A DNA stretch of 11,348 nucleotides. It comes from a virus. Its lineage: Duplodnaviria > Heunggongvirae > Uroviricota > Caudoviricetes. The stretch spans positions 1 through 11,348 of IMG/VR virus record IMGVR_UViG_2700989521_000010; one strand, written 5' to 3'. The position numbers are program-made. Below, in pieces: positions 3,001-6,000 of this stretch. How positions within the stretch are numbered: the first letter of the stretch is position 1; each line of letters opens with the position of its first letter.

Positions 3001-6000
3001 GGTTTGTAGAAAAGCAAGCCGCAGAGAAAACTGAGCATTGACAGGAGAACTCGTCGGAAAATTGAATACTCAACAGCAGAGGTAACAAAAATTACCGTTC
3101 CAGCAAGCGATCCTAAGGCAACCTCAGGAGGAGCTCCCACAATGACAGAAGCTAATGCACCAAGGCTAAGCATCTGATTTATTTTCACAGTCGTTAGAGC
3201 TATTGACATTACAATCACCGTTTAACGTGCATAACATCATTATTAATGGCGATTTAATCATATACAACAAACCCAATATGGTTAACACATTTTTTGATAA
3301 ATAATGACGAAATTACCTTAAAGGTGATATAATTACCCTTTACTTAGAAACCTTTAGCTACTGGAATTTGAATCAATGCTGTTTAATTTTATACACTACC
3401 ACCATTTAGTTTTCGATCTGCTCGATAGTATATAGAGGCTCAACTTTATAAAAAATATATTTTACCGTGAGCTAACTAATATAGTTAGTGCACGCAATGT
3501 AACTACCAGTTTGTATTATAAAATTATATCAACAAAGGAAACATAATGAGAAAAATTTACCTAATATTAACAATCATAATTTCTGTATTTACTGGCATAT
3601 ATATTGGTGCCAGTCAAACATTACCATATAATTTAAAATATTCTCTCAAAGAATATTTTTTATCGGGTAAAAACAATTCACCGATAGGCCATGCTTATTG
3701 GTCAAAACGTGATCTAACATATTTAAAACAAAGGAAAGTTGATATTATTATGCTTGGCGACAGCATCACAGAAACAGGAAGATGGTCTGACTTCTTTCCT
3801 TCAGTATCAATAGCGAACTATGGCATAGCTGGTGATACCAGCCAAGGAATTAAGAATAGATTAGAACCTATAATAAATGCAAAACCCAAGAAGGTCTTTA
3901 TTATGATTGGTACTAACGATCTTACCAATCATGAAAGTGTACAAAAGATATTAGATAATTATAGAAATATTAAATAGAAACGGAATTACCACTATAATTC
4001 AATCAACAATCTACTCTGGCATAAACGAAAAGATAAAAAATAAGAAAATAAAACAAATCAATGAAGGTCTTCAAAAATTATCTAATGAGCAACAAATAAC
4101 CTATCTAGACCTTAACACATCGCTATCACCAAATGGGTATTTGAAAAATGAATATACAATTGATGATACTCATTTATCTAAATGATGGTTATAAGGCGTG
4201 GATAGAAATTTTAAAACCTTTTATACTCTAAGATCTTTAAAGGGGCTATTTGCCCCTTTATCTTCCATCATCTACCACCTAAAAACAATACTCTTGTTAA
4301 TGCGATCCTAGTAAATATTTCGTGAGTAATTATAGACAAAATAAGAGTTATCATAAACATCGCTATACCTTCTCTCATATATTCAGCAAGGATAAAATGA
4401 AACATCTGATGCACAAACATAATTGTTAATGATGCTTTGCCTATTATTTCTAATGGTTTTATATAATTTCCATCAAGTCGTTTAAATAATTCAATAACAA
4501 CAACAGAAAATACAATATTTATGATAAAACTGACGAATGGAACACCATACAATGACGTCTTCATGTCAAACATAAAAATTTTTTGATACGCTATCGCAAT
4601 AAAAAGCAGCACGATAGATACAACAATAAAAAACAAAAGCCGTACATTACACTCTTTATAGAATAAACCAACCATTGCCAATGGAACAGCATACAACACA
4701 ACATTGGCATTTAATGGAATTGGGAATTTTACCAACCAAGACAATACATAAGAGCACATTAATAAAATAAAAGCCAAGAGCCACTTATCTTTTGCCACCC
4801 TTAGTTTTTCACTAATTAACATCAAAACTATAAGAGTGAAAAACATAACAGGAATAAACCAAAAAACACCAAACCAACCAGTCATAACCTGACCACCATA
4901 AACCATCTTTATTAGTTGTTTTATCATTAATTTTGAATCATACCCATCCCTCATAATATTATAAGAAGAAAACACCACAAATAATAAAATAGAATATGAA
5001 AAATAAGGAACGATTAGTGATTTAACTTTCCCAACTATAAACTTATTTTTGTCATTGGGCTCTTTAAATAAAATTCCAGAAACGATAAAAAACAATGGCA
5101 TATGGAAAAGATAAATCACATAAGATGATAAGCCACTTATAATATGCGCATAAACAACAAGTATAATTCCGAAACCTTTAACGGCATCAATATAGCCAAG
5201 TCTTTTTTTAGTTTCCATTCTTAAACCAAGAAGTTAATTTATTACAAATTGATAGATAACAACAAATCAACAACAATGTCAACATATAAAGTTACATTTA
5301 TTGCCACTATTCCATGAAAAATAACGCTAGCAATATCACTAAATAACATCAAATGATTAAAATTTTAATATATAATATATCAATATCAAATAAAACTGTT
5401 AACCCCCTCACCAAATTTTACTTTTCTATAACCACCAAGAAAAGATATAACAACATGCAATACAAATAATAACGAACATTACAATAAAAAATGAAATTTA
5501 TTTTTTACAAATGACTTCCAAAAAACTACATGATATTATTTATTCTTTTTTTACATGTGGAATATACAATGAGAGAACAAAGAAATTTACTTGTTGATTG
5601 TATAAAAGGCGGTGCTATCTTTCTTGTCGTACTCGGACATTGCATACAATTCATGGGGCCAAGCAGCTATAATTTTTTTGATAACTTTATATTTAAATCT
5701 ATTTATAGTTTTCACATGCCATTATTCATGGCTGTAAGTGGATATTTATTTTCTGTAACAATAAAAAAAGGAATATGTGTGAGAACATAATAAATAAATT
5801 TCACAAGCTAATAATTACAGCGATATCATGGACCATCTTAATTAGTTTATTATTTAATGGTTCGGTAAGTGTTCAGGATATTAAATATCAATTAATATCA
5901 GGTCTATGGTTCATTACAACACTATTCATCATATCTACTGTTGCATATACAATTTTTTCTATATCCCATAAAAATTTCATATGACTATATGCTTTATTTT

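What the first reader, a model, noticed from the sequence alone, without database searches (positions are those of the whole stretch)
3546..4231. Stand-alone membrane-anchored SGNH hydrolase next to an AT3 acyltransferase: a possible split two-component O-acetylation system
Known OafA/OatA-type O-acetyltransferases fuse an AT3 membrane domain to a periplasmic SGNH domain. Here a 316-aa AT3-only protein (4268-5218) is encoded convergently to a separate SGNH protein with its own N-terminal TM anchor. The pair could act as a split system, analogous in logic to the PatA/PatB split acetylation systems, or the SGNH protein could be a dedicated esterase. The SGNH gene carries two frameshifts in this sequence, so it may be inactive.
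Basis: inference. Interest (0 to 1): 0.55.

Follow-up and report, generated by a model that had tools for sequence, protein, structure and literature searches.

The report
Broken prophage esterase gene beside acetyltransferases
This is a dead copy of a small secreted acetyl-esterase gene. It sits with two sugar-acetylating membrane enzymes in the surface-sugar remodelling slot of an epsilon15-like prophage, and it more likely removes acetyl groups than helps add them.

Summary
Window 3546-4231 is an SGNH/GDSL gene broken by an 11-bp deletion (3958) and a 1-bp insertion (4183). It converges on an intact 316-aa AT3-only gene.

Intact 231-aa orthologues exist, but only in E. coli. They always lie in one epsilon15-like prophage, in the slot where phage phiV10 carries its single oac gene. 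There they sit beside two AT3-only genes and a tailspike that itself has an SGNH esterase module.

The intact protein has all four canonical SGNH blocks and an N-terminal helix, so the catalytic domain should face the periplasm.

The split AT3+SGNH transferase reading is not excluded, but the evidence leans against it:
- It keeps the block II Gly and the GxND motif that characterised SGNH transferases have altered.
- Both AT3 proteins carry the unfused-type FFxxSG motif.
- The genes are in separate transcription units.
- AT3 genes lie near only 3 of 80 genomic and 0 of 38 viral homologues.

Best reading: a periplasmic glycan O-acetyl esterase within an O-antigen acetyl-remodelling cassette, inactive in this window.

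The parts
3304..3333 (+). Best sigma-70-like match upstream of the SGNH gene, inside the AT-rich 327-bp spacer 3219-3545. Only a consensus match.
   Evidence: 10 of 12 matches with a TG extension. The total count of such sites in the region does not exceed the shuffled expectation.
3546..3977 (+). SGNH pseudogene, first frame. It encodes the N-terminal helix and SGNH blocks I (GDS, Ser73), II (Gly93) and III (GTND, Asn124). It goes out of frame after residue 137 and stops at 3975-3977.
3957..3958 (+). Junction of the 11-bp deletion (ATTATAGAGAT lost between ATTATAGA repeats).
   Evidence: Shared with CP026840.1.
3959..4183 (+). SGNH pseudogene, second frame. It encodes residues ~142-216, including block V (D210-x-x-H213). 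The extra T at 4183 ends it.
4184..4231 (+). SGNH pseudogene, third frame: the last 15 codons (DGYKAWIEILKPFIL) plus the stop.
4238..4260 (.). GC-rich hairpin between the two convergent genes. It is a likely two-way transcription stop (inference).
   Evidence: -15.7 kcal/mol, z -3.8, and 0 of 200 shuffles fold as well. The terminator scan did not call it.
4268..5218 (-). AT3 gene 1: intact, 316 aa, AT3-only, NolL/fucose-4-O-acetylase-like. It has K14-x10-H25 and FFIVSG motifs.
5569..6602 (+). AT3 gene 2, 339 aa when intact. It is broken here by an A8-to-A7 frameshift at 5763 and by nonsense changes at 5984 and 6411. It carries a (GGGAG)5 repeat at 6554-6578.
6752..9001 (-). Tailspike, 749 aa. 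It has an epsilon15/phiV10-type N-terminal adaptor, an SGNH esterase module (GDSNS, GTND, DPVH) and a beta-sandwich.
1412..3218 (-). Prophage lysis cassette (Rz-like DUF2514, GH19 endolysin, two holins). It forms the other boundary of the moron slot.

Best explanation
The intact gene encodes a small SGNH serine esterase. It is either held on the outer face of the inner membrane by an N-terminal helix or released into the periplasm after signal cleavage. It is an accessory gene in the O-antigen modification slot of an epsilon15-like (Uetakevirus) prophage. It sits there with two independently transcribed, self-sufficient AT3-only O-acetyltransferases. I propose that it hydrolyses O-acetyl esters on a surface glycan, most likely the O-antigen. 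The cassette as a whole would then rewrite the acetylation pattern. The phage's own tailspike is an esterase type, and hosts lacking O-acetyl groups resist the esterase-tailspike phage G7C. Stripping the receptor acetyl group would therefore give superinfection exclusion. Shown: the gene structure, the catalytic motifs, the fold, the context and the pseudogene state. Inferred: the substrate, hydrolase rather than transferase activity, and the biological role. In this window the gene is dead, because translation ends at residue 143 before the Asp/His of the triad.
For: - **Family and catalytic residues.** Pfam Lipase_GDSL_2 at 6e-23. S73, G93, N124, D210 and H213 are invariant across 57 homologues.
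- **Fold and topology.** AlphaFold pLDDT 91, with helix 2-25 ahead of the catalytic core.
- **Active site is the hydrolase type.** It keeps the block II Gly and block III GxND. PatB and OatA replace the block II Gly (PMC12148441). OafA and OafB lack GxND (PMC7448272).
- **The AT3 proteins look self-sufficient.** Both have the unfused-type FFxxSG motif and lack the fused-type GG-F/Y-xGV-D motif. All 89 relatives of AT3 gene 1 are unfused, at 206-394 aa.
- **Same slot, one gene suffices elsewhere.** In phiV10 this slot holds a single AT3-only oac, annotated as acetylating the O-antigen for superinfection immunity.
- **Esterase tailspike.** The tailspike C-terminus models as SGNH plus beta-sandwich and matches phage esterase-type tail fibres.
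- **Precedent for the proposed role.** Acetylation-deficient hosts resist G7C (PMC10743462).
- **Pattern of decay.** In this lineage the SGNH gene and AT3 gene 2 carry five inactivating lesions while AT3 gene 1 carries none.
Against: - No biochemical data exist for this protein or for any close relative.
- Motif and fold similarity cannot rule out transferase activity.
- A prophage that carries two acetyl-adding enzymes and one acetyl-removing enzyme side by side needs an explanation that I can only guess at, such as different positions or sugars.
- One independent homologue (L052) lies 45 bp downstream of an AT3 gene on the same strand.
- 11 of 80 homologues lie near MBOAT genes. Some family members therefore belong to acetyl-adding pathways.
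- The tailspike model is of moderate confidence (pLDDT 74).
Confidence: 0.55

Rival explanations
1. Split two-component O-acetyltransferase. One AT3 protein carries acetyl across the membrane, and the separate SGNH protein picks it up and puts it on the O-antigen. This would be OafA/OatA made of two polypeptides, or PatA/PatB with AT3 in place of MBOAT.
For: - The SGNH gene and two AT3-only genes always travel together in a compact low-GC cassette.
- The catalytic domain is predicted to face the periplasm.
- L052 shows an independent AT3-then-SGNH pair with a 45-bp gap inside a glycan-decoration cluster.
- MBOAT genes lie near homologues in about five lineages.
- The literature openly asks whether stand-alone AT3 proteins need an unknown SGNH-like partner (PMC9558356; PMC9833829).
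- SGNH and AT3 gene 2 are both dead in this lineage, which would fit co-decay of partners.
Against: - The active site is a canonical hydrolase type.
- Characterised transferase SGNH domains are among the more distant fold matches.
- The AT3 genes are of the unfused type.
- There are three separate transcription units, with SGNH convergent on AT3 gene 1.
- AT3 genes lie within 10 kb of only 3 of 80 genomic and 0 of 38 viral homologues, and only one is adjacent.
- phiV10 manages with oac alone.
- AT3 gene 1 stays intact after the SGNH gene died, and strains exist in which either AT3 gene is broken while SGNH is intact.
Confidence: 0.15
2. Nutritional accessory gene. A periplasmic sialate (or other free-sugar) O-acetylesterase lets the lysogen use O-acetylated host sugars, and is unrelated to the neighbouring AT3 genes.
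For: The nearest characterised relative is a gut Bacteroidales sialate O-acetylesterase. Many Bacteroidota homologues sit beside glycan-degrading genes such as sulfatases, DUF4185 and DUF4434.
Against: - Identity to that enzyme is only ~30-37%, about the same as to homologues in polysaccharide synthesis clusters.
- The gene lies in the seroconversion slot with two AT3 genes and shares their low GC content.
- No sialic-acid uptake or catabolism genes are nearby.
Confidence: 0.1
3. The frameshifts are sequencing artefacts and the gene is active in this strain.
For: The single T insertion at 4183 is seen only in the window.
Against: The 11-bp deletion is flanked by direct repeats, is not a homopolymer error, and recurs in the independent assembly CP026840.1. 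It alone removes the Asp/His of the triad from the frame. The neighbouring AT3 gene 2 has three further lesions in the same lineage.
Confidence: 0.03

Closest known systems
Phocaeicola (Bacteroides) vulgatus sialate O-acetylesterase, PDB 6NJC/7PZG, and the PAF-acetylhydrolase-like branch of SGNH hydrolases
   Different: Only ~30% identity. This protein has an N-terminal membrane helix and sits in a prophage O-antigen modification slot, not a sialic-acid utilisation locus. Its substrate is unknown.
phiV10 Oac and the epsilon15-group (Uetakevirus) seroconversion slot
   Same: Same position between the tailspike and the holin/endolysin genes. An AT3-only O-acetyltransferase lies next to the tailspike on the opposite strand. 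The tailspike N-terminus is ~70% identical.
   Different: phiV10 has one AT3 gene and no esterase. This prophage has two distantly related AT3 genes plus a stand-alone SGNH gene, and its tailspike enzymatic part is an SGNH module.
OafA/OafB and OatA (fused AT3-SGNH O-acetyltransferases)
   Same: The same two domain families are involved, and the SGNH domain is predicted to be periplasmic.
PatA/PatB/Ape1 and AlgI/J/X or WssH/I/F (MBOAT plus separate SGNH proteins)
   Same: The logic of a membrane acyl carrier plus separate periplasmic SGNH proteins. The Pat cluster also includes a cognate esterase (Ape1). Some homologues of this protein lie in MBOAT loci.
   Different: There is no MBOAT gene here and no operon. 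PatB has a block II Ser/Asn and beta-hairpin wings that are absent here.
Komagataeibacter BcsX/BcsY (bcsII operon)
   Same: A stand-alone ~223-aa SGNH protein encoded next to a membrane acyltransferase, and proposed but unproven to acylate a polysaccharide (PMC9318390). BcsY being AT3-family is from my memory and was not checked here.
   Different: Those genes are co-oriented in a cellulose synthase operon. BcsX has Ser in place of the block II Gly. No sequence relationship to BcsX was tested here.
Phage G7C gp63.1 and related esterase tailspikes
   Same: The tailspike in this window carries an SGNH esterase module. Loss of host O-acetylation blocks G7C, which is the basis for the exclusion idea.
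   Different: That comparison concerns the tailspike, not the finding's gene. The stand-alone protein is not a close paralogue of the tailspike module.

Membership tests
SGNH/GDSL hydrolase superfamily | Block I GDS with a nucleophile Ser | tested here: met
   LGDSIT with S73, invariant in 57 sequences. Pfam PF13472 at 6e-23, above its cut-off.
SGNH/GDSL hydrolase superfamily | Block II Gly, block III GxND and block V DxxH | tested here: met
   G93, G122-T-N124-D125 and D210-T-H213 are invariant or nearly so.
SGNH/GDSL hydrolase superfamily | Alpha/beta/alpha flavodoxin-like fold | tested here: met
SGNH/GDSL hydrolase superfamily | Uninterrupted reading frame in this window | tested here: not met
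   An 11-bp deletion and a 1-bp insertion. The product ends at residue 143, before the Asp/His.
Fused AT3-SGNH O-acetyltransferases (OafA/OafB/OatA) | SGNH domain joined to AT3 through an 11th helix and linker | tested here: not met
   Separate genes on opposite strands. The AT3 proteins are 316 and 339 aa with no SGNH domain.
Fused AT3-SGNH O-acetyltransferases (OafA/OafB/OatA) | Atypical oxyanion hole: no GxND in OafA/B, or block II Gly replaced in OatA | tested here: not met
   Gly93 and GTND are canonical. The criteria come from PMC7448272 and PMC12148441.
Fused AT3-SGNH O-acetyltransferases (OafA/OafB/OatA) | AT3 domain carries the fused-type GG-F/Y-xGV-D/P/V motif | tested here: not met
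   The motif is absent from both AT3 proteins. The unfused-type FFIVSG / FMAVSG motif is present.
Fused AT3-SGNH O-acetyltransferases (OafA/OafB/OatA) | Acetyl transfer from AT3 to SGNH to the glycan | not testable with these tools
   Needs genetics or biochemistry.
MBOAT plus SGNH split systems (PatA/PatB type) | MBOAT gene in the same locus | tested here: not met
   There is none in the window. MBOAT genes lie near 11 of 80 distant homologues only.
MBOAT plus SGNH split systems (PatA/PatB type) | Block II Ser/Asn and the extra hairpins of PatB | tested here: not met
EstA-like sialate O-acetylesterases | Significant sequence and fold similarity | tested here: met
EstA-like sialate O-acetylesterases | Activity on O-acetyl sialic acid, or a sialic-acid locus context | tested here: inconclusive
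   The context is a phage seroconversion slot, not a nan locus. Activity cannot be tested here.
Uetakevirus seroconversion cassette | Position between the tailspike and the holin/endolysin genes of an epsilon15-like prophage | tested here: met
   Synteny with phiV10. Tailspike N-terminus is 70-72% identical to epsilon15 and phiV10.

The most novel reading that the evidence does not exclude
The stand-alone SGNH protein is the long-sought periplasmic partner that takes acetyl from a stand-alone AT3 protein and places it on the O-antigen. That would make this cassette a natural two-polypeptide version of OafA/OatA. A second AT3-then-SGNH pair in an uncultured gammaproteobacterium (L052) would be an independent example.
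Probability: 0.15. Interest if true: 0.8.

Novelty: new variant of a known kind. Interest (0 to 1): 0.4.

Why it matters
Prophage O-antigen acetylation changes serotype, phage sensitivity and antibody recognition. All described cases use a lone AT3 protein or a fused AT3-SGNH protein.

A cassette that pairs two lone AT3 genes with a separate periplasmic SGNH enzyme has not, to my knowledge, been described. It is more unusual still next to a tailspike that is itself an esterase.

If the enzyme is an esterase, it would be a prophage that edits or strips acetyl marks to protect its host from its own kind. If it is a transferase partner, it would answer the open question of how stand-alone AT3 proteins complete the transfer.

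Intact alleles exist in cultured E. coli, so simple knock-outs would decide between the two readings. The copy in this window only shows that the lineage has discarded the function.

Tried and rejected
- **Sequencing artefact.** Rejected for the first lesion. It is an 11-bp deletion between repeats and is shared with a second assembly.
- **Paralogue of the tailspike esterase module.** Rejected, with no significant similarity.
- **Genome scan with the 57-sequence alignment.** It failed for lack of a conserved stretch. A 14-sequence alignment worked.
- **First AT3 screen.** It used an HMM built from NolL-like relatives plus a hydrophobicity filter, and it missed the AT3 gene next to the L052 homologue. 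I found that gene by chance in a Pfam scan. I then rescreened with a looser filter and Pfam. The final counts of 3 of 80 and 0 of 38 could still miss very divergent or fragmentary AT3 genes.
- **Immediate neighbours of homologues.** They are too heterogeneous to give one conserved context.
- **Peptidoglycan O-acetyl esterase acting with the adjacent lysis genes.** I considered this and set it aside, because from my own knowledge E. coli peptidoglycan is not O-acetylated.
- **The 2026 epsilon15 tailspike preprint.** The full text could not be opened. Only its title and abstract start were seen.
- **Protein-complex prediction of SGNH with either AT3.** Not available with these tools.

Full report
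**What is in the window**

The 11.3-kb window runs as follows:
- an IS1 end (1-321);
- the chromosomal genes yfgH and yfgI;
- the end of a prophage: an Rz-like gene, a GH19 endolysin and two holins (1412-3218, minus strand);
- a block at 3201-6800 with only 23-32% GC, against 44-55% on either side;
- a 749-aa tailspike gene (6752-9001, minus strand);
- further virion genes.

The low-GC block holds three genes. They are the SGNH gene of the finding (3546-4231, plus strand), an intact 316-aa AT3 gene (4268-5218, minus strand) and a second AT3 gene (5569-6602, plus strand).

**Checking the observation**

Only 3 of 5,426 complete E. coli genomes carry this DNA. They match at 99.2-99.3% identity, at the same chromosomal site, and each has an uninterrupted 696-bp gene annotated as a GDSL-type esterase. 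A base-by-base comparison places an 11-bp deletion between ATTATAGA repeats at window 3958, and an extra T at 4183.

A further assembly, CP026840.1, is 99.93% identical to the window. It has the same IS1 and the same 11-bp deletion, but not the extra T. The gene is therefore a genuine pseudogene in this lineage. The product stops at residue 143 and lacks the Asp/His of the triad.

The second AT3 gene is also dead here. It has an A8-to-A7 frameshift at 5763 and nonsense changes at 5984 and 6411. The first AT3 gene is identical to the common allele.

**The intact protein**

- The 231-aa orthologue matches Pfam Lipase_GDSL_2 at 6e-23.
- In an alignment of 57 homologues, S73, G93, N124, D210 and H213 are invariant.
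- AlphaFold gives pLDDT 91, with a helix at residues 2-25 ahead of the catalytic core.
- Most homologues also start with a hydrophobic segment.
- Whether this segment is an anchor or a cleaved signal cannot be decided here. Either way the catalytic domain should be periplasmic.

**Relatives**

Above 90% identity the protein occurs only in E. coli, and the next hits drop to 48% or less.

Every E. coli context read shows the same layout: holins, SGNH, AT3, AT3, 749-aa tailspike. This is therefore one evolutionary event, and it is not independent evidence of linkage.

The closest solved structures are hydrolases:
- PAF-acetylhydrolase-like proteins and acetyl-xylan esterases come next.

**Transferase or hydrolase?**

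Published work gives three testable markers:
- PatB and S. pneumoniae OatA replace the block II Gly by Ser or Asn, and build a hydrophobic wall that excludes water (PMC12148441).
- OafA and OafB lack the GxND block and add an extension (PMC7448272).
- AT3 domains that work with a fused SGNH domain share a GG-F/Y-xGV-D/P/V motif. Unfused O-antigen acetyltransferases share FFxISG instead.

This protein keeps Gly93 and GTND. Both AT3 proteins have K-x10-H and FFIVSG or FMAVSG, and both lack the fused-type motif. All 89 relatives of the first AT3 protein are unfused. NCBIfam places the second nearest to NolL.

**Gene arrangement**

- The SGNH gene and AT3 gene 1 converge on a strong hairpin at 4238-4260.
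- The two AT3 genes diverge from a 350-bp spacer.
- That makes three transcription units rather than one operon.

**Co-occurrence beyond E. coli**

I collected 38 viral and 80 genomic loci encoding homologues of 28-41% identity. After a first screen that proved leaky, Pfam scans of membrane-protein candidates gave the following.

AT3 genes lay within 10 kb in three genomic loci and in no viral locus:
- L052: an AT3 gene 45 bp upstream on the same strand. It sits in a cluster with a GT2 glycosyltransferase, a carbamoyltransferase and methyltransferases.
- L096: an AT3 gene 4 kb away, in a polysaccharide locus.
- L058: an AT3 gene 8 kb away.

MBOAT genes lay within 10 kb in 11 loci from about five lineages. 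Usually one gene lies in between.

Other contexts:
- Another full-length homologue sits inside a GT2/EpsG polysaccharide cluster with no AT3 gene within 6 kb.
- The closest enterobacterial homologue lies next to a phage portal remnant, with no AT3 gene detected within 10 kb.
- Immediate neighbours are otherwise heterogeneous and include glycan-degrading genes.

The wider family therefore mixes catabolic esterases with members of glycan-acetylation loci. Tight AT3 pairing is the exception.

**Phage context**

The tailspike N-terminus is 70-72% identical to those of epsilon15 and phiV10. In phiV10 the slot between the tail fibre and the holin holds one AT3-only oac gene, annotated as acetylating the O-antigen for superinfection immunity. 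A review also lists it as acting in seroconversion (PMC9558356). The same review notes that epsilon15 conversion involves loss of host O-acetylation.

The tailspike C-terminal 504 residues have invariant GDS, GTND and DxVH motifs across ten homologues that carry different N-terminal adaptors. The model has pLDDT 74. It matches esterase-type phage tail fibres (9LNA, 9D84, 9D81), SGNH esterases and carbohydrate-binding beta-sandwiches.

Hosts lacking O-antigen acetylation are fully resistant to the esterase-tailspike phage G7C (PMC10743462).

**Interpretation**

The best-supported reading is a periplasmic O-acetyl esterase that belongs to an acetyl-remodelling cassette.

One specific role remains an inference: the enzyme removes the acetyl mark that the phage's own esterase tailspike needs, while the AT3 enzymes add marks elsewhere.

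The split-transferase idea stays open at about 15%. The L052 pair and the MBOAT associations keep it alive.

Decay patterns are mixed:
- AT3 gene 1 has no lesion, while its two neighbours carry five. If lesions were spread evenly by length, about 2.8 would be expected in AT3 gene 1, and the chance of seeing none is about 0.06. This is my own rough estimate.
- That argues weakly against dependence of AT3 gene 1 on the SGNH gene.
- The joint death of SGNH and AT3 gene 2 could instead hint at a link between those two.
- Other strains have AT3 gene 1 or AT3 gene 2 broken while SGNH is intact.

**Verdict**

The copy in this window is inactive. The intact cassette is a rare, undescribed variant of prophage O-antigen acetylation modules, and it is a practical test case for the question of whether stand-alone AT3 proteins need a partner.

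Noticed in passing
window 5763-5769 (AT3 gene 2, codons ~66-69): The poly-A tract is A7, giving a frameshift and a stop at residue 73, in the window and in three unrelated E. coli assemblies (L133, L139, L140). It is A8 in the 17 other assemblies examined. This could be a slipped-strand on/off switch or homopolymer sequencing noise.
   Followed up: partly
window 6554-6578: A GGGAG pentanucleotide repeat lies near the 3' end of AT3 gene 2. It has 2 copies in 19 E. coli loci, 4 in CP026840.1 and 5 in the window.
   Followed up: partly
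window 6752-9001 (-): The tailspike joins an epsilon15/phiV10-type adaptor to an SGNH esterase module and a beta-sandwich. The same C-terminal module occurs behind P22-type and other adaptors in a handful of proteins. No phage in the reference collection covers more than 38% of it.
   Followed up: yes
It is 339 aa when intact and NolL-like. It carries three inactivating lesions here.
   Followed up: yes
window 1-321: An IS1 end (InsA reading frame) abuts yfgH. The same junction is present in CP026840.1, which suggests an IS-rich, Shigella-like lineage. The organism name was not verified.
   Followed up: partly
L002 (E. coli O22:H8 strain 154) 9979-10929: In this strain AT3 gene 1 has a nonsense change (stop at residue 186), while the SGNH gene and AT3 gene 2 are intact. 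The three genes therefore decay independently in different strains.
   Followed up: partly
L052 4316-6105: An uncultured gammaproteobacterium has an AT3 gene followed 45 bp later, on the same strand, by a full-length homologue of the SGNH protein (36% identity). The pair sits among GT2, carbamoyltransferase and methyltransferase genes. This is the only independent tight AT3-SGNH pair found.
   Followed up: partly
L096, L098, L113, L124 (around 10 kb in each locus): A same-strand arrangement of the SGNH homologue, one intervening gene and an MBOAT gene recurs in Flavobacteriia, Elusimicrobia, Ignavibacteria-type and Clostridia genomes. The intervening gene is DUF1574 in L098, weakly GDSL-like in L113, without a Pfam match in L096, and a UDP-GlcNAc 2-epimerase in L124.
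   Followed up: partly
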